A stretch of 64,000 nt of DNA from Candidatus Shapirobacteria bacterium (lineage in GTDB: Bacteria; Patescibacteriota; Microgenomatia; UBA12405). The position numbers were made by a program, and so were the translations under genes. The notes below the pieces were generated by a model. The model was not told the DNA's origin. It made no database searches and was given only the letters and a program-made list of their open reading frames with translations. The stretch spans positions 300,791 through 364,790 of the forward strand of contig JBAZTV010000001.1 in assembly GCA_041661765.1 (NCBI GenBank), read 5' to 3'. Below, piece by piece: positions 26,640-32,126 of the stretch (the stretch's first letter is position 1; the number at the start of each line of letters is the position of its first letter).

Positions 26640-26665
26640 TAATTCATTATAGATTATAATGAACT

Positions 26666-27097
26666 ATGAAAATTAAAATCAAAAGATTTGATAAAACACT
26701 GCCGTTACCAGTTCATAAAACCACTGGTGCCGTCGCCGTCGATTTATATTCCCGTCTTGATGCTGAAATTCCACCCAAAGAAATTGGCAAAATTCCCATG
26801 AATGTTGCCATAGAAATTCCCGATGGTTATTTTATTATGATGGTTCCTCGCAGTTCTACCCATAAATTAGGCATAATGTCGGCCAATGGCGTTGGTGTCT
26901 TCGATCGTGATTACTGTGGCGACAACGACGAATATCATTTTCTTGTTTACAATTTTACCCACGCTCCCATCCATATCGAAAAAGGCACCCGTCTTTGTCA
27001 GTTATTATTAATCAAATGTGAAAATTTTGATTTCATCGAAGTCGACAAGATGGGCAATTCTGACCGCGGCGGGTTTGGGACAACAGGAGTGAAGTAA
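26666..27097 (+). CDS. dut: dUTP diphosphatase
   Basis: 143 aa; dUTPase motifs incl. C-terminal motif V RGGFGTTG. Confidence 0.8.
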   Translation: MKIKIKRFDKTLPLPVHKTTGAVAVDLYSRLDAEIPPKEIGKIPMNVAIEIPDGYFIMMVPRSSTHKLGIMSANGVGVFDRDYCGDNDEYHFLVYNFTHAPIHIEKGTRLCQLLLIKCENFDFIEVDKMGNSDRGGFGTTGVK

Positions 27098-27594
27098 TTT
27101 TTCAATCTCCCCTAGCCCCTCTTTGACAAGAGGGGAACTAAATCATCAATTTTCTTTTTTACGGAATCAATATTATCTATCACTTCTTCATTTGTAAATC
27201 TTATTGTTGTAACCCCAATTTGTTTCAAAAATTTATCCCTCAATTCATCCGTTCCTTTCTTTTTAATATGCGATTCACCATCAATCTCAATTGCCAATGA
27301 TAATTTTGAACAATAAAAATCAACAATAAATCGATCAATTGGTTTTTGTCTCAGAAATCTATAGCCGGTTTTATCTCTCGACAAAATTTTATCCCAAATT
27401 ATTTTTTCAGCATCAGTCGGTTTCGTTCTATTTTTCTGCGACATAAAAGTCAAACTATTTCGATATCGAACACAATTTCTTTTAGAATTTATCGCTTCAT
27501 AATCAACCGATTTTTTCATTAAAAAATTATATATTCCCCCGTCTTGTCAAAGAAGGGGGCAGGGGGAAGATTGAATAAAAAGGGGAGATTGAAA
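27098..27594. mobile_element. candidate miniature selfish element: DUF559 gene bounded by 14-bp perfect terminal inverted repeats (TTTCAATCTCCCCT / AGGGGAGATTGAAA) and sub-terminal GC-rich hairpins
   Basis: Left end 27100..27113 and right end 27581..27594 are exact reverse complements; hairpins CCCCTCTT-TGAC-AAGAGGGG (27116..27135) and CCCCCGTCTT-GTCA-AAGAAGGGGG (27536..27559) are near-copies of each other in inverted orientation. Confidence 0.4.
27112..27519 (-). CDS. DUF559 endonuclease-like protein (Vsr/restriction-endonuclease-like fold)
   Basis: IWDKILSRDKTGYRFLRQKPIDRFIVDFYCSKLSLAIEIDGESH...GVTTIRFTNEEV matches the DUF559 pattern; C-terminal 9 codons are encoded by the left terminal hairpin. 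Confidence 0.65.
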   Translation of the reverse strand: MKKSVDYEAINSKRNCVRYRNSLTFMSQKNRTKPTDAEKIIWDKILSRDKTGYRFLRQKPIDRFIVDFYCSKLSLAIEIDGESHIKKKGTDELRDKFLKQIGVTTIRFTNEEVIDNIDSVKKKIDDLVPLLSKRG

Positions 27595-27675
27595 TGATAA
27601 AAAATTTTATAATTTTTATCCGCTTTATTATTTTCTAGTGGAGCTTTGTAATTTTGCTGGAGTATAATAACCATT

Positions 27676-28014
27676 ATGAATACATTAGATTTAATAATAC
27701 AAGCTATTGAAACACAAAAACCAATCGTTTTTGAATATAATAAAGAAGGTAAGATACAAGGTGAACGAAAAGGGAATCCTCATGCGATTTTTATTTTTAC
27801 TAAAAAATCAGGAGAACAAAGTACGAAAATTCACATCGTCCAAACAGATGGCGTTTCCGATACAACACCTCCAAATTTTCCAGATTTTAGAACTTTTGAT
27901 ATTGAGGATCTTTCCTTGATAAAAATTTTAGAAGATGAAGAATCTTTTGTTCCTTTTTATGAAAAGTACAATCCAGAGTCGGAAATGTATAAAGATGTAA
28001 TTGCCAAGATTTAA
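27676..28014 (+). CDS. small WYL-like domain protein (putative ligand-sensing regulator), no HTH
   Basis: PIVFEYNKEGKIQGERKGNPHAIFIF...KIHIVQTDG...FRTFDIEDL resembles WYL-domain core (R.v.P..L......WYL...R.FRLDRI); 3-nt gap to next gene. Confidence 0.35.
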   Translation: MNTLDLIIQAIETQKPIVFEYNKEGKIQGERKGNPHAIFIFTKKSGEQSTKIHIVQTDGVSDTTPPNFPDFRTFDIEDLSLIKILEDEESFVPFYEKYNPESEMYKDVIAKI

Positions 28015-28016
28015 TT

Positions 28017-29033
28017 ATGAGTGTTCAATATCATCAGGAAATATTTTCAAATGGAAATATTGTTTTAAAGGTAAATTTTTCAGGAATTAAAGATAATATA
28101 ACAACAGCAACTGATTTAAGTATGTCTTTTTATGCCTATAATAAGAAGACGTGTCAACCAATATTTTCTGAGACATTAAACTTTGAACAGATAAAAAATT
28201 TATACGAATACTTAAATCGAATTTCAATTATCAAAGATTCATCAAAAACTATCACGGGCAAATTTGTTGAAGCCACAGGAGAAATTTTAGAATTATTAGA
28301 CGGTCTCAAAAATATTGATCCAAAAATTTTAAAAACTATTTTACTTAAACTAAATGAGGATGAAAAAATCAAAACTCTTTTAGAATCTCTATCTGAAATA
28401 GATTTAGAAAACCTCTCTGCGGCTTATAAACAAAAAAAATATCAAACGGAATTAGAAAATCTAAAAAAACTCCTAGAGTTAGAAGAAAAAAGCAATATTG
28501 TTGATGATATTAAAAAAGATGAAAGTTTAAAATCTTATGAGGCTGGACAGCCAGAAAAAATATTTCAAAAATGGATTGAACAGAATTTGTGGGTTTTTGG
28601 AGTTGAATATATTAAAAAACACAACGAAAGAAAGATTGCATTATTTAGTGAAGCTGACATTTTAATGGAATCAGCTGATGGGTTTTTGGATCTTATTGAG
28701 TTGAAAAGGCCAAAATATGAAATATTTCAATATGACACAAGTCATAATAGCTATTATCCATCATCTGATTTATCTAAAGTAATCGGTCAATGTTTATTTT
28801 ATTTACAGGAAATGGACGATCAAAAAGTAGTTTTAGAAAAAAAATACAAAGTAAAAATAATAAGACCTAGAATTAAAATAATTGCTGGAAGAACTTCGGA
28901 ATTTAAAAACGAACAATTTGAAGCGTTAAGGATGTTAAATTCAAATTTAAATTCCATTCAAATTATTTCATATGATAATTTGTTGGCATGCGGTCAAAAA
29001 ATAATATCTTTATATAAGGATGATGTAAAATAA
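28017..29033 (+). CDS. RecB-family PD-(D/E)xK nuclease-domain protein, Shedu (DUF4263)-like C-terminal domain with unknown N-terminal domain
   Basis: C-terminal half: ...NLWVFGVEY..., SEADILMESADGFLDLIELKRP (D...D..ELK), GQCLFY (QxxxY) ; N-terminal ~180 aa coiled-coil rich with no recognisable domain. Confidence 0.45.
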   Translation: MSVQYHQEIFSNGNIVLKVNFSGIKDNITTATDLSMSFYAYNKKTCQPIFSETLNFEQIKNLYEYLNRISIIKDSSKTITGKFVEATGEILELLDGLKNIDPKILKTILLKLNEDEKIKTLLESLSEIDLENLSAAYKQKKYQTELENLKKLLELEEKSNIVDDIKKDESLKSYEAGQPEKIFQKWIEQNLWVFGVEYIKKHNERKIALFSEADILMESADGFLDLIELKRPKYEIFQYDTSHNSYYPSSDLSKVIGQCLFYLQEMDDQKVVLEKKYKVKIIRPRIKIIAGRTSEFKNEQFEALRMLNSNLNSIQIISYDNLLACGQKIISLYKDDVK

Positions 29034-29036
29034 CCT

Positions 29037-30233
29037 ATGACCCTTATCTATATCCTCCTAATTCTAATTTTAATCGCCCAGGTTTATTTAATTCTTAAAT
29101 CAAAAAACACCGATAATACGGCGGAATTAATAAAAGAGCTCGATAAAATTCAAGTTAAATTAGAAAATTCCATCAAACAAGATTTTTCCCTAAATCGCCA
29201 AGAGTTAGGCACATCTTTTAATAATTTCTCCATTAAACTCGATAAACTTATCACTGGAATTAGTACCAATCTAAATCAAGTCCGCGAATCTATTGAAAAA
29301 CGACTTGAATTAATTCAAAAAGATAACTCTGTTCAACTTGAAAAAATGCGGGTTACTGTCGATGAAAAATTACAAAGCACTCTGGAAAAAAGACTAGGGG
29401 AGTCATTCAAACAAGTCAGCACTCAACTAGAATCAGTTTACAAAGGTTTAGGCGAAATGCAAACTTTAGCTGTTGGTGTCGGCGATCTCAAAAAAGTTTT
29501 ATCCAATGTCAAAATTCGCGGAACTTGGGGTGAAGTTCAACTCAACAGTTTATTGGAACAAATTTTAACTAACGACCAATATGATAAAAATGTGGCCGTC
29601 AAAAGTGGTAGTGCCGACCGGGTCGAATTTGCCATCCGTCTTCCCGGTAAAGACGATGAAAACAAGCAATGTTGGTTACCAATTGATTCTAAATTTCCAC
29701 TAGAGGATTATCAAAATTTAATTAAAGCCCAAGATGCCGTCGATTTGGTTCAAATCGAAATTTCTTCAAAAGCTTTGGAAAACAGAGTTAAAACCGAAGC
29801 CAAATATATTTTTGATAAATATATCGACCCACCCCATACCACCGATTTTGCCATCCTTTATCTTCCTATCGAAGGATTATATGCAGAAATTACCCAAAAA
29901 CAGGCATTAGTTGACACACTTCAACGACAATATCGGGTCACTATTGCTGGTCCAAACACCATTGCCGCCTTGCTCAACAGTTTGCAAATGGGTTTCCGCA
30001 CTCTTGTTATTGAAAAAAGATCTTCAGAAGTTTGGTCGGTTCTCGGAACCATTAAAAAAGAATTTGGCCTTTTTGGTGATCTTTTGGTTAAGACCAAAAA
30101 GAAACTTCAAGAAGCTACTAATACCATCGACGATGCCAGTTCAAAATCCAGAACTATCACCAGTAAATTAAATAAAGTCCAAAGTCTTACCGAAACTAAG
30201 GAAGAAAAAATAATTAGTTCTCTCCATGAATAA
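29037..30233 (+). CDS. rmuC: DNA recombination protein RmuC-family
   Basis: N-terminal TM, long coiled coil, then RmuC core (KIRGTWGEVQL, LPIDSKFPLEDY, DFAILYLPIEGLY, IAGPNT). Confidence 0.75.
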   Translation: MTLIYILLILILIAQVYLILKSKNTDNTAELIKELDKIQVKLENSIKQDFSLNRQELGTSFNNFSIKLDKLITGISTNLNQVRESIEKRLELIQKDNSVQLEKMRVTVDEKLQSTLEKRLGESFKQVSTQLESVYKGLGEMQTLAVGVGDLKKVLSNVKIRGTWGEVQLNSLLEQILTNDQYDKNVAVKSGSADRVEFAIRLPGKDDENKQCWLPIDSKFPLEDYQNLIKAQDAVDLVQIEISSKALENRVKTEAKYIFDKYIDPPHTTDFAILYLPIEGLYAEITQKQALVDTLQRQYRVTIAGPNTIAALLNSLQMGFRTLVIEKRSSEVWSVLGTIKKEFGLFGDLLVKTKKKLQEATNTIDDASSKSRTITSKLNKVQSLTETKEEKIISSLHE

Positions 30234-30528
30234 GAAGTTTTCCTATTATTCTCTTACTCTTGCGTCTATTTTCTTAATTTTCATCAATTTAGTTTCACCT
30301 GAACTTCTTTGGTCAAAAATAATTTTCTTTTTCATTATTTTTTGTTTCTTTTTTTCTACCATTTGCATTTTTTCTCAAAAATATTTAGCCAGTTTAATCA
30401 AAGCAATCTATTTAACTTCACTAGTTTTGCTTTTATTTTTCCAACAATTTAACACTATAAATATAATTCTTATTTCAATTATTTTGATTGTTTTTTTATT
30501 TCTAATATCTAAAAAAACAGTTTCATAA
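30226..30528 (+). CDS. small polytopic membrane protein, hypothetical
   Basis: 100 aa, three hydrophobic helices; overlaps rmuC stop by 8 nt. Confidence 0.35.
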   Translation: MNKKFSYYSLTLASIFLIFINLVSPELLWSKIIFFFIIFCFFFSTICIFSQKYLASLIKAIYLTSLVLLLFFQQFNTINIILISIILIVFLFLISKKTVS

Positions 30529-30643
30529 GTTTTTTGATAAAATACCCCACAACTAAATTTTCAGTAAAAACATTGAAAATATTGGTGTTCGCACCTTCAC
30601 ATAAATAAAATCTAAATTTAAAAAAAGAAAGGATGTTTTTGTA

Positions 30644-31366
30644 ATGGACTCAAAAGACAGAATCATTATCCCTATCGACAACAGTGGTCTCTACAAGGCT
30701 ATCAAAACAGTAGAGACACTAAAGCCCTATGTTGGAATGTTTAAATTTGGTTTAGAGATGATTACCTTTATAGTAACCAAAATAGCAACCACAGGGGATA
30801 TTACTTTGGCTAGAAAAGTCAAAGAATTATTTACTCTTGTCGAGGGTCAATTGTTTTGGGATGGCAAATGGGCAGATATTCCTAACACTGTCGGTCAGGC
30901 CGCTTTGGCTATTCAATCGTTGAATCCTAAATTAATCAATATTCATGCGTCATGCGGTGTGACGGCTATTAAGGAGGTGGTTAAAAACAAAGGGTTTAGT
31001 CAGGTTTTAGGAGTTACGGTTTTGACTAGTATTGACTCAGAAGAATGCGTTTCGATTTTTGGAAATAAACCAGGAATCAAAGTTGTTGAATTTGCCAAAT
31101 TTTTGATTGATTCTGGAGCTGATGGAATAATTTGTTCACCACAAGAATTAAGATTATTGGAAGGTTTTCCTTTAATAAAAGTTACTCCAGGGGTTAGACC
31201 AGTATGGGCATCAGTAAATGATCAAAAACGAGTTATGACCCCAAGTGAAGCAGTTAAAGCTGGTGCTGATTATCTTGTTATCGGCCGGCCTATTACTAGT
31301 CCACCAAATGGCATAACTCAGTTAGAGGCAGTTAAAAAAATAATTGAAGAATTGGAGGCAGTTTAA
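30644..31366 (+). CDS. pyrF: orotidine 5'-phosphate decarboxylase
   Basis: IIPIDNS..., KFGLE, ADIPNTV, GVRP...QKRVMTP...GADYLVIGRPI motifs. Confidence 0.75.
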   Translation: MDSKDRIIIPIDNSGLYKAIKTVETLKPYVGMFKFGLEMITFIVTKIATTGDITLARKVKELFTLVEGQLFWDGKWADIPNTVGQAALAIQSLNPKLINIHASCGVTAIKEVVKNKGFSQVLGVTVLTSIDSEECVSIFGNKPGIKVVEFAKFLIDSGADGIICSPQELRLLEGFPLIKVTPGVRPVWASVNDQKRVMTPSEAVKAGADYLVIGRPITSPPNGITQLEAVKKIIEELEAV

Positions 31367-32046
31367 TGAACAGAGTTATTCTTGATCCCTATAAAATATT
31401 AATCAGCCATGACGCTGTCTATCAATCACCAGTCAGTGCTAATGGAGAACTCCTCGGACCTTTAGTTGGTTATGCTGGCACTTATGTTAACGACAAAGGA
31501 GAAAAGGAAAACTATGTCGGTTCTGCCTATTTTAATATGGCTAAAGTAGAGGAAGATTCCTTTACTAGATGTTTTTTTGCGGATAATTTAGCTTGTCAAA
31601 TAAAGGAAAAGTTCTCCATATCATTAGTCCTCATTGGAGCGCCAATGGGTGGAATAATTTTTACTGTAACCATCGCCGACATCTTAAAAAGTCGGGCGAC
31701 TTTTTTTGAAAAAAAAGAATCAGAATTAGTTTTTAACCGCCACACCCTCAAAAAAGGTGACAAAGTAATATTGGTTGAAGACCTTGTAAATAATTTCTCT
31801 ACCACTAACAAAATGATTAAAATTGTCACAAATATGGGTGCTGAAGTTAAAGCCATTGCTTGTGTTTTTAATCGATCACCTTATGATAATTGGGAAGGAA
31901 TTCCGGTGATATCAGTCATTCATAAATCTGCCCCAGAGTTCAAGCAAAATGACCCGGTGGTTAAAAAATTAATTGAGGCCGGCAATATTGTCTGGAAACC
32001 AAAAGCCGAATGGCCTAGGCTCAAAGCAGCTATGCAAACTGTCTAA
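31366..32046 (+). CDS. phosphoribosyltransferase-domain protein, possibly orotate phosphoribosyltransferase-like (divergent PRPP motif)
   Basis: ATGA overlap with pyrF; type I PRTase-like segment VILVEDLVNNFSTT (PRPP loop not canonical). Confidence 0.45.
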   Translation: MNRVILDPYKILISHDAVYQSPVSANGELLGPLVGYAGTYVNDKGEKENYVGSAYFNMAKVEEDSFTRCFFADNLACQIKEKFSISLVLIGAPMGGIIFTVTIADILKSRATFFEKKESELVFNRHTLKKGDKVILVEDLVNNFSTTNKMIKIVTNMGAEVKAIACVFNRSPYDNWEGIPVISVIHKSAPEFKQNDPVVKKLIEAGNIVWKPKAEWPRLKAAMQTV

Positions 32047-32071
32047 TAAATTAGGTTTTATGTATGTGATT

Positions 32072-32111
32072 ACCGGTAGGTATTTTGTTTTCAAACAAAA
32101 CATCTACCGGT
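32072..32111. repeat. 40-nt imperfect palindrome ACCGGTAG...CTACCGGT (GTAG/CTAC-terminated, REP-like) between pyrE-like gene and hrcA; likely terminator hairpin
   Basis: Read directly: ACCGGTAGGTATTTTGTTT-TC-AAACAAAACATCTACCGGT. Confidence 0.45.
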
Positions 32112-32126
32112 TTTCTATTTCCCCTC

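What the first reader, a model, noticed from the sequence alone, without database searches (positions are those of the whole stretch)
27676..30233. Three-gene cassette (WYL-like small protein -> Shedu/DUF4263-like RecB-family nuclease with novel N-terminal domain -> RmuC) inserted between dut and pyrF next to a TIR element: candidate novel defense/DNA-surveillance system
The three ORFs are separated by 3-nt gaps, so they form one operon. Gene 1 (112 aa) matches the WYL-domain core (ERKGNPHAIFIF ... KIHIVQ ... FRTFDIEDL) but lacks the usual HTH. WYL domains are ligand sensors recurrent in defense islands. Gene 2 has a C-terminal PD-(D/E)xK domain with D...D..ELK and the RecB-family QxxxY motif (GQCLFY), preceded by an NLWVFGVEY segment, in the arrangement typical of Shedu SduA (DUF4263). 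Its ~180-aa coiled-coil N-terminal region matches nothing I recognise. Gene 3 is a full RmuC (TM + coiled coil + RmuC nuclease-like core). The cassette sits immediately beside the DUF559 TIR element and interrupts otherwise housekeeping nucleotide-metabolism genes, the context typical of defense islets. The combination WYL + Shedu-like + RmuC is not a described system as far as I know.
Basis: partly seen in the sequence, partly recalled or inferred. Interest (0 to 1): 0.75.

Follow-up and report, generated by a model that had tools for sequence, protein, structure and literature searches.

The report
Two-gene Shedu defence cassette beside rmuC
The first two genes are a known two-part anti-phage nuclease system (a KELShedu-type Shedu) inserted as a 1.45-kb block into a variable slot of a Candidatus Shapirobacteria genome. 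The third gene, rmuC, is a resident backbone gene and not part of the system.

Summary
The three ORFs exist as described: g1 27676-28014, g2 28017-29033, g3 29037-30233. They are not one novel three-gene system.

The pair is collinear with the enterobacterial pair that matches the published two-component KELShedu system (KELA + KELB, Zhang et al., Sci Adv 2025). The hhalign probability is 99.5% over residues 1-331.

RmuC is absent from all 112 related Shedu/g1 loci surveyed. In sister Shapirobacteria genomes rmuC sits in the same dut-[slot]-rmuC-hrcA backbone without Shedu. Synteny breakpoints define a 1,450-bp insertion (27576-29025) that holds only g1 and g2. The 3-nt gap between g2 and rmuC is a by-product of the insertion site.

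Verdict: a new, divergent, unstudied Patescibacterial member of a known system. Interest is modest.

The parts
27576..29025 (+). The inserted block: about 1,450 bp that is absent from the closest comparable sister locus. It holds a 100-nt leader, g1 and g2.
   Evidence: Blastn synteny: window 26654-27575 matches L121 5075-5984, and window 29026-30181 matches L121 5989-7145. The two blocks are only 4 nt apart in L121. Three other sister contigs also resume homology at window 29024. GC is 26-30% inside the block and 32-39% in the flanks.
27576..27675 (+). Upstream leader carried with the cassette. A promoter here is presumed, not shown.
   Evidence: It lies inside the insertion. It contains TATAAT at about 27663-27668, read directly from the sequence. 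The consensus scan found no full sigma-70-type site on the + strand here.
27676..28014 (+). g1: the KELA-like small subunit. It is a stand-alone WYL-fold (Sm/SH3 beta-barrel) protein of 112 aa, with no HTH and no Trp.
28017..28241 (+). g2 N-terminal domain (residues 1-75): a four-strand beta-sheet plus a helix. It is the presumed docking site for g1.
   Evidence: AF2 model strands 6-11, 15-22, 35-42 and 48-54, helix 56-66. It aligns with high confidence to the KELB-like N-terminal domain. g1 is present only where this domain is present: 23 of 23 loci against 0 of 10. The paper reports that KELB residues 1-55 bind KELA.
28242..28550 (+). g2 helical linker or hinge (residues 76-178).
   Evidence: AF2 gives low pLDDT for residues 72-98 and helices up to about 194. 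It is the least conserved segment against KELB-like proteins, at 19% identity.
28551..29033 (+). g2 Shedu nuclease domain (SduA_C/DUF4263, residues 179-338). The PD-(D/E)xK residues are D214 (28656-28658), E228 (28698-28700) and K230 (28704-28706), plus Q258 (28788-28790).
   Evidence: Pfam SduA_C 1.1e-21 over residues 179-323. The only significant Foldseek matches are B. cereus Shedu 8ti8/8ti9 (1.4e-6) and E. coli SduA 8ps5 (2.7e-4). D214, E228, K230 and Q258 are invariant in the clade and align with conserved D, E-x-K and Q in the KELB-like clade.
29037..30233 (+). rmuC, the flanking backbone gene. It is NOT part of the system and is listed only as the right-hand anchor of the slot.
   Evidence: Pfam RmuC 3.9e-73. 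It is 80-98% identical in sister Shapirobacteria, in the same dut-slot-rmuC-(pyrF)-hrcA-grpE-dnaK context without Shedu. It is absent from all 112 related Shedu/g1 loci.
27112..27519 (-). DUF559 gene flanked by inverted repeats. It is separate cargo in the same slot and NOT part of the Shedu cassette.
   Evidence: Pfam DUF559 5.1e-28. Inverted repeats lie at 27100-27135 and 27538-27594. It is present with its repeat in L121/L122 without Shedu, at 79% aa identity. It is absent from L119, L120 and L123, and occurs near only 1 of 112 related Shedu loci.

Best explanation
g1 and g2 form a two-component Shedu anti-phage system of the KELShedu type (called Type IV Shedu in the paper). It was acquired horizontally as a 1.45-kb block in a variable slot between dut and rmuC of a Candidatus Shapirobacteria genome.

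Proposed mechanism:
1. The WYL-fold protein g1 docks on the beta-sheet N-terminal domain of the nuclease g2. The nuclease oligomerises through its DUF4263 core. This step is inferred from strict co-occurrence here and was shown biochemically for the E. coli homologue.
2. The complex is held inactive in healthy cells. In E. coli KELAB, physiological NTP levels inhibit cleavage, and KELA lowers the ATP level needed for inhibition from 12 mM to 2.5 mM.
3. During phage replication the PD-(D/E)xK site (D214, E228, K230) is released and degrades DNA non-specifically, giving abortive infection. This step is inferred by homology only.

rmuC and DUF559 are bystanders.
For: Family identity:
- PADLOC SduA PDLC00402 3.5e-44 over g2 residues 30-336, and Pfam SduA_C 1.1e-21.
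- The g2 model matches only solved Shedu structures.

The pair is a unit:
- In SduA-anchored genome loci, 23 of 23 that keep the g2 N-terminus have g1 immediately upstream.
- 60 of 75 evaluable g1-anchored metagenome loci have g2 directly downstream. Most gaps are -4 to +5 nt.
- Relatives that are 74% identical in the nuclease but carry a different N-terminal domain lack g1 and sit inside Type I R-M operons.

Link to KELAB:
- The Pantoea pair matches the paper's figures: 110 aa / 12.6 kDa / no Trp; 337 aa / 38.7 kDa against 38.6 kDa; SduA_C at 145-313 against 146-313; KELA R41 and KELB G46 and T51 all present; 2-nt spacer against the paper's 3 bp.
- g1 is 59% identical to that small subunit.
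- The g2 clade against the KELB-like clade gives hhalign probability 99.5%, E 2.3e-23, collinear over residues 1-331.

Insertion:
- Synteny breakpoints lie at 27575/27576 and 29025/29026.
- GC is lower inside the block.
- Sister genomes carry other cargo in the same slot, including the PADLOC candidate PDC-S13.
Against: - I could not obtain the KEL80640.1 and KEL80639.1 sequences, so the link to the tested system rests on proxy proteins that match the paper's numerical descriptors.
- g2 is only about 26% identical to the KELB-like nuclease. The residues mutated in the paper are not conserved: g1 has F at position 41, and g2 has C46 and S51. Interface details and regulation may therefore differ.
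- The NTP-depletion model comes from a single study on one homologue.
- Every characterised WYL domain that g1 resembles binds ssDNA or RNA, whereas the paper reports non-specific dsDNA binding.
- No expression or phenotype data exist for this organism. No clear promoter was found.
- The g2 model is only moderate in quality (pLDDT 72).
Confidence: 0.82

Rival explanations
1. One reading: g1, g2 and RmuC form one novel three-gene defence or DNA-surveillance operon, with RmuC as a second nuclease effector as in Shield.
For: There is a 3-nt gap and no + strand terminator between g2 and g3, so read-through transcription is likely. RmuC domains can act in defence (Shield ShdA, PMC10270631). g3 has the TM + coiled-coil + RmuC layout.
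Against: No RmuC lies within +/-6 kb in any of 112 related g1/Shedu loci. rmuC is 80-98% conserved in the same backbone position in sister genomes that lack Shedu. The insertion boundary at 29025/29026 leaves rmuC and its conserved leader outside the block. An unrelated cargo gene in L120 shows the same 3-nt spacing at the same TAA. PADLOC gives g3 only a weak RTasRmuC hit at 1.2e-6. Shield has been found only in Pseudomonas, and its authors excluded housekeeping RmuC.
Confidence: 0.03
2. g1 is a transcriptional or post-transcriptional regulator of the nuclease gene, like the WYL regulators BrxR and CapW, and not a stoichiometric subunit of the nuclease.
For: All top structural neighbours are WYL transcription factors. 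g1-like genes also sit directly upstream of other defence modules: Gabija-like, Type III R-M and PDC-S06. That pattern resembles BrxR and CapW.
Against: g1 has only 112 aa with no HTH or other DNA-reading domain. For the E. coli homologue the paper reports no repression of KELB, co-purification and pull-down of the two proteins, and a requirement for both in defence. g1 tracks the N-terminal domain of the protein and not the nuclease gene as such: 23 of 23 loci against 0 of 10.
Confidence: 0.08
3. g1 acts as an antitoxin-like inhibitor or chaperone of a toxic nuclease. Phage infection would release g2 by displacing, titrating or degrading g1, and not through NTP sensing.
For: KELB expressed alone is largely insoluble, and KELA sensitises the nuclease to ATP inhibition (12 mM down to 2.5 mM). 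Interface mutations that weaken binding increased defence. The genes are tightly coupled in translation, with gaps of -4 to +5 nt, and the small gene comes first. This layout resembles toxin-antitoxin pairs.
Against: KELB alone was not toxic in E. coli, and KELB alone gave much weaker defence. A pure inhibitor model predicts the opposite. The small subunit is far more conserved than the nuclease (59% against 26%), which is unusual for antitoxins.
Confidence: 0.12

Closest known systems
KELShedu (KELA + KELB), the two-component Shedu of E. coli; Zhang et al., Sci Adv 2025 (PMC12577705)
   Same: The small gene comes first, with 2-3 nt before the nuclease gene. The small subunit is about 110 aa, has a WYL-like Sm/SH3 barrel, lacks Trp and lacks an HTH. 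The nuclease is about 337 aa, with a beta-sheet N-terminal domain, a hinge and a C-terminal DUF4263 domain. Homology is collinear and full-length to the matching enterobacterial pair.
   Different: The nuclease is only about 26% identical, while the small subunit is 51-59% identical. The interface residues mutated in the paper are not conserved (F41; C46 and S51). The host is a Patescibacterium (Ca. Shapirobacteria), and the site is a chromosomal dut|rmuC slot and not a P4-like satellite or integrative element. There are no functional data here.
Canonical single-gene Shedu (B. cereus SduA, PDB 8ti8/8ti9; E. coli SduA, PDB 8ps5)
   Same: The same DUF4263 PD-(D/E)xK core with a modular N-terminal regulatory domain. 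Shedu is known for diverse N-terminal sensor domains (Gu et al.).
   Different: Those systems act as single proteins whose own N-terminal domains gate the nuclease. Here a small N-terminal domain recruits a separate WYL-fold protein. PDB sequence search finds no match, so the similarity is at fold level only (18-19% identity).
WYL-domain regulators BrxR, CapW, PafBC and DriD
   Different: g1 has no wHTH and no WCX dimerisation domain. It lacks the eponymous Trp. It falls below the Pfam WYL threshold. In the homologous system it acts as a nuclease partner and not as a repressor.
Shield (ShdA), the RmuC-domain defence system, and housekeeping E. coli RmuC
   Same: g3 has the N-terminal TM helix, a coiled coil and an RmuC PD-(D/E)xK domain.
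   Different: g3 behaves as housekeeping RmuC. It keeps a conserved syntenic position across sister genomes and has thousands of Patescibacterial orthologues. Shield was found only in Pseudomonas defence islands.

Membership tests
KELShedu-type two-component Shedu | A bicistronic pair: the small gene lies immediately upstream of the DUF4263 nuclease gene on the same strand, a few nt apart. | tested here: met
   The gap is 2 nt. The same arrangement occurs in 23 of 23 genome loci and 60 of 75 metagenome loci.
KELShedu-type two-component Shedu | The small subunit has a WYL-like Sm/SH3 beta-barrel, lacks the canonical Trp and has no HTH. | tested here: met
KELShedu-type two-component Shedu | The nuclease has a short beta-sheet N-terminal domain (about residues 1-55), a hinge and a C-terminal DUF4263 domain. 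| tested here: met
   AF2 gives strands within residues 6-54, a helix at 56-66 and low confidence at 72-98. SduA_C covers residues 179-323.
KELShedu-type two-component Shedu | Sequence homology of both proteins to KELA and KELB. | tested here: inconclusive
Proxy enterobacterial pairs match the paper's sizes, masses, domain limits and named residues. Against those proxies, g1 is 51-59% identical and the g2 clade gives hhalign probability 99.5%.
KELShedu-type two-component Shedu | A physical A-B complex; both genes needed for defence; NTP-inhibited metal-dependent DNase; abortive infection. | not testable with these tools
   Only indirect support is available: g1 is present exactly where the g2-type N-terminal domain is present.
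Shedu (SduA / DUF4263) | A match to the DUF4263/SduA_C profile above the curated threshold. | tested here: met
   78.1 bits against a cutoff of 27. Twelve PADLOC SduA models match, the best at 3.5e-44.
Shedu (SduA / DUF4263) | PD-(D/E)xK catalytic residues are intact. | tested here: met
   D214, E228, K230 and Q258 are invariant in 23 clade members. They align with conserved residues in the KELB-like clade.
Shedu (SduA / DUF4263) | The fold matches solved Shedu nucleases. | tested here: met
   Foldseek: 8ti8 at 1.4e-6, 8ti9 at 2.4e-5, 8ps5 at 2.7e-4. No other hit has E below 0.08.
WYL domain (PF13280) | A Pfam profile match above the gathering score. | tested here: not met
   17.6 bits against a cutoff of 21.8, covering only residues 3-40. 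The fold-level match is nevertheless strong.
wHTH-WYL-WCX regulators (BrxR / CapW) | An N-terminal winged HTH and a C-terminal WCX domain flanking the WYL domain. | tested here: not met
   The protein has 112 aa, with one helix followed by the barrel. No HTH profile hit was found.
Shield (ShdA) - considered for g3 | An RmuC-domain protein encoded as variable cargo in defence islands, not in a conserved housekeeping position. Known only from Pseudomonas. | tested here: not met
   g3 keeps a fixed syntenic position in six sister contigs at 80-98% identity. PADLOC gives only a weak RTasRmuC hit.
Proposed three-gene WYL-Shedu-RmuC system | The three genes co-occur in other genomes. | tested here: not met
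   0 of 112 related g1/Shedu loci contain an RmuC homologue (tblastn at 1e-4, flanks up to 6 kb).

The most novel reading that the evidence does not exclude
KELA-like stand-alone WYL proteins may be a portable sensor or adaptor module used by several unrelated defence effectors, not only by Shedu.

Relatives of g1 lie directly upstream, on the same strand, of:
- a Gabija-like OLD-ATPase + UvrD-helicase pair (L100/L101; 46% identical to g1);
- a Type III R-M system, whose Mod gene overlaps the g1-like gene by 34 nt (L102/L103; 46%);
- the candidate system PDC-S06 (L002/L003, Pedobacter; 65%).

Every characterised WYL domain that g1 resembles senses ssDNA or RNA. The physiological trigger of two-component Shedu could therefore be phage-derived ssDNA and not NTP depletion.

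The small subunit is also much more conserved than its nuclease (59% against 26%). That would fit a sensor constrained by a universal ligand.
Probability: 0.2. Interest if true: 0.55.

Novelty: new member of a known kind. Interest (0 to 1): 0.27.

Why it matters
The finding removes a false lead: there is no WYL-Shedu-RmuC system. It places the locus in the recently described two-component Shedu family.

It also adds comparative evidence that the original single-organism study lacked:
- The pair is widespread. It occurs in Patescibacteria, Bacteroidota, Cloacimonadota, Margulisbacteria, Ignavibacteria and Proteobacteria.
- The WYL subunit is strictly tied to one type of nuclease N-terminal domain, which supports the proposed docking model.
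- Standard tools (PADLOC, NCBI annotation) call only the nuclease and miss the partner gene.

For CPR biology, it documents a precise defence-cargo hotspot between dut and rmuC in Shapirobacteria.

Tried and rejected
1. **RmuC as part of the system.** Rejected on co-occurrence (0 of 112 loci) and synteny.
2. **DUF559 as part of the cassette.** Rejected. It is present with its inverted repeats in L121/L122 without Shedu. It is absent from other sister loci. It lies near only 1 of 112 related Shedu loci.
3. **The 431-433 aa g2 relatives as g1-SduA fusions (Rosetta stone).** Rejected. Their extra 175 aa are unrelated to g1, and they sit in Type I R-M operons.
4. **Finding KELAB directly.** Megablast of the Pantoea pair against E. 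coli complete genomes found nothing. Distant blastn found a 70%-identical pair in 3 genomes. The paper's supplements are not held. Cluster accessions did not include the KEL numbers.
5. **g1 in phages or plasmids.** tblastn found nothing.
6. **PDB sequence searches with the g1 and g2 profiles.** No significant hits. Only fold comparison worked.
7. **NCBIfam.** It gave nothing useful for any of the three proteins.
8. **A g2-type N-terminal domain in the alternative partners of g1-like genes.** None was detected by tblastn at 1e-3.
9. **Promoter and terminator scan.** It was not informative in this AT-rich CPR sequence: 29 promoter-like sites against 19.6 expected.
Full report
**Observation**

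They lie between dut (26666-27097), a - strand DUF559 gene (27112-27519) and pyrF (30644-31366). The g1-g2 spacer is 2 nt and the g2-g3 spacer is 3 nt. All the quoted peptide motifs are present. The window is 100% identical at protein level to a Candidatus Shapirobacteria MAG, where NCBI already names g2 a [quoted passage not shown] and g3 "DNA recombination protein RmuC".

**What each protein is**

- **g2** matches Pfam SduA_C (1.1e-21, residues 179-323) and twelve PADLOC SduA models. The best model, PDLC00402, covers residues 30-336 at 3.5e-44, and PDLC00382 covers residues 1-123. The N-terminal region is therefore not novel. Its AF2 model (pLDDT 72) has a four-strand sheet at residues 6-54, a helix at 56-66, a poorly ordered hinge, a helical linker and the nuclease core. 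The only significant matches in the PDB are the solved Shedu nucleases 8ti8/8ti9 and 8ps5. D214, E228, K230 and Q258 are invariant in the clade.
- **g3** is a full-length RmuC (3.9e-73).

**Which genes travel together**

I fetched 30 genome loci anchored on g2-like SduA and 80 metagenome loci anchored on g1. I then searched all of them with the six window proteins.

| Test | Result |
|---|---|
| SduA-anchored loci that keep the g2 N-terminus and have g1 immediately upstream | 23 of 23 |
| Evaluable SduA-anchored loci where the match starts at residue 53 or later and g1 is present | 0 of 5 |
| Evaluable g1-anchored loci with g2 directly downstream (gaps mostly -4 to +5 nt) | 60 of 75 |
| Related loci (outside the Shapirobacteria sister contigs) with any RmuC, dut or pyrF homologue | 0 of 112 |
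| Related loci with a DUF559 homologue | 1 |

A natural experiment sharpens this. Proteins of 431-433 aa share g2's linker and nuclease at about 74% identity but carry an unrelated N-terminal domain of about 175 aa. They are embedded in hsdM-SduA-hsdS-hsdR operons and have no g1. So g1 tracks the N-terminal domain of g2 and not the nuclease.

**RmuC is backbone, and g1-g2 is an insertion**

RmuC orthologues that are 80-98% identical occur in sister Shapirobacteria contigs. Their backbone is uvrD-like - DUF2207 - dut - [slot] - rmuC - (pyrF, PRTase) - hrcA - grpE - dnaK - dnaJ. The slot holds different cargo in each genome:

- a 670-aa unknown protein (L119);
- a 267-aa protein that matches the PADLOC candidate PDC-S13 at 4.8e-131 (L120);
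- DUF559 alone (L121/L122);
- a 115-118-aa ORF (L123/L124).

Blastn against L121 shows window 26654-27575 and 29026-30181 matching segments that are only 4 nt apart in L121. The other sister contigs also resume homology at 29024. This defines a 1,450-bp insertion, 27576-29025, that holds only a 100-nt leader, g1 and g2. GC is 26-30% inside the insertion and 32-39% outside it.

At the right junction, g2's last codons and its stop (GTA AAA TAA) lie in the conserved rmuC leader, GTGTAAAATAACCTATG. The unrelated L120 cargo gene ends at the same TAA. The 3-nt spacing is therefore a by-product of the insertion site. It does not indicate functional coupling.

**Comparison with what is known**

A full-text search found Zhang et al., Sci Adv 2025 (PMC12577705), which describes the two-component KELShedu system. 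The paper reports the following:

- KELB is 38.6 kDa with DUF4263 at residues 146-313. The two genes are separated by 3 bp.
- Both genes are needed against phages T1, T7 and JNUWH1.
- KELA binds the KELB N-terminal domain (residues 1-55) and binds dsDNA non-specifically.
- The nuclease is inhibited by physiological NTP levels.
- Defence works by abortive infection.

I could not obtain the KEL sequences. A Pantoea pair found among the g1 homologues matches every numerical descriptor in the paper. Its small subunit is 110 aa, 12.6 kDa and has no Trp. Its nuclease is 337 aa and 38.7 kDa with SduA_C at 145-313. KELA R41 and KELB G46 and T51 are all present. An E. coli pair in a P4-like satellite is 62-64% identical to the Pantoea pair.

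g1 is 59% identical to the Pantoea small subunit and 51% to the E. coli one. g2 is about 26% identical to the nucleases but collinear over its whole length (BLASTP 7e-14). A profile-profile comparison of the two clades gives probability 99.5% and E 2.3e-23 over residues 1-331, with the N-terminal domain aligned confidently. Gu et al. treat Shedu as a single-gene system and do not mention this partner.

**Mechanism**

- **Shown here:** the domain identities, the intact catalytic residues, the strict linkage between g1 and the N-terminal domain, and the insertion boundaries.
- **Shown by others for a homologue:** the A-B complex, the requirement for both genes, the NTP-inhibited DNase activity and abortive infection.
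- **Inferred for this locus:** g1 docks on g2 residues 1-55, keeps the nuclease soluble and restrained, and the nuclease is released during phage replication.

Several caveats apply. The published interface residues are not conserved here (F41; C46 and S51). The NTP model rests on one study. WYL domains otherwise sense ssDNA or RNA.

**Verdict**

WYL-like and Shedu were correct. A three-gene operon, a novel N-terminal domain and an undescribed system were not. This is a new, divergent Patescibacterial member of a known two-component Shedu family, sitting in a defence-cargo hotspot next to a housekeeping rmuC.

The residual novelty lies in the comparative results and in the lead that KELA-like WYL proteins also precede Gabija-like, Type III R-M and PDC-S06 modules.

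Noticed in passing
window 27098-29025; sister loci L119 3953-5965, L120 2248-3051, L121 5525-5932, L123 5528-5884: The dut|rmuC interval is a precise variable slot in Shapirobacteria. Its right boundary is the same in every genome compared, about 11-13 nt upstream of the rmuC ATG. The cargo differs per genome: a 670-aa protein with no Pfam or PADLOC hit, PDC-S13 (PADLOC 4.8e-131), DUF559 alone, or a 115-118-aa ORF.
   Followed up: partly
window 27100-27135 and 27538-27594, flanking DUF559 (27112-27519, - strand): DUF559 is bracketed by inverted repeats: a 20-nt pair at 90% complementarity plus a 14-nt perfect pair. The same gene and repeat occur in L121/L122 but not in L119, L120 or L123, so it behaves as independent mobile cargo.
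   Followed up: partly
L100 5989-10846 (also L101); L102 4299-8947 (also L103); L002 6001-8509 (also L003); L114-L117: g1-like WYL-only proteins (44-65% identical to g1) lie directly upstream of other defence modules instead of SduA. These are a Gabija-like OLD/GajA ATPase + GajB helicase pair, a Type III R-M Mod (overlapping by 34 nt) + Res, the PADLOC candidate PDC-S06 (1.7e-271), and a 135-aa multi-TM protein.
   Followed up: partly
L125-L129 (for example L125 400-6182): SduA proteins about 74% identical to g2 from residue 79 onward carry a different N-terminal domain of about 175 aa. They are inserted between hsdM and hsdS of Type I R-M operons, without a g1. This shows N-terminal domain swapping within one nuclease lineage.
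   Followed up: yes
g1 against g2, compared with L005 6001-7349 and L118 5965-7308: The small WYL subunit is much more conserved across phyla (51-59% identity) than its partner nuclease (about 26%: N-terminal domain 31%, linker 19%, nuclease 28%).
   Followed up: partly
L118 (E. coli BR1220 chromosome, 3924895-3926238 in the record): The E. coli KELAB-like pair lies in a P4-like satellite context (Icd-like gene, DUF927 primase, an ogr/Delta gene disrupted by IS3). In Pantoea the pair lies in an element with a relaxase and two integrases. RefSeq annotates the small gene only as hypothetical.
   Followed up: partly
L001 6338-7342 (same region as L033), Ca. Peregrinibacteria CP064978.1: In this complete genome the SduA downstream of the g1 homologue is called as two ORFs (144 aa + 143 aa). 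tblastn nevertheless aligns residues 1-333 continuously, so the gene may be interrupted or decaying. The locus also carries Abi_C and DUF4917 genes.
   Followed up: no
L099 (3,856-bp contig Ga0208901_1002245), g1 homologue at 2047-2385: The whole contig has no ORF of 90 aa or more under code 11. The g1 homologue has three in-frame stops, one of them at the invariant G59. This suggests an organism with a reassigned stop codon (possibly UGA = Gly) and not a pseudogene.
   Followed up: no
window about 30450-32108 (pyrF 30644-31366 and PRTase-like 31366-32046): The pyrF + phosphoribosyltransferase pair is itself variably present. L119 and L123/L124 go from rmuC almost straight to hrcA, and homology resumes only at about 32108-32118. 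L120 and L121 keep pyrF.
   Followed up: no
window 29019-29033 (g2 C-terminus): g2's C-terminal tail (…KDDVK) extends beyond the family consensus end (…ISxYxx). Its last codons are encoded partly by backbone rmuC leader sequence, so the junction created the present stop codon.
   Followed up: partly
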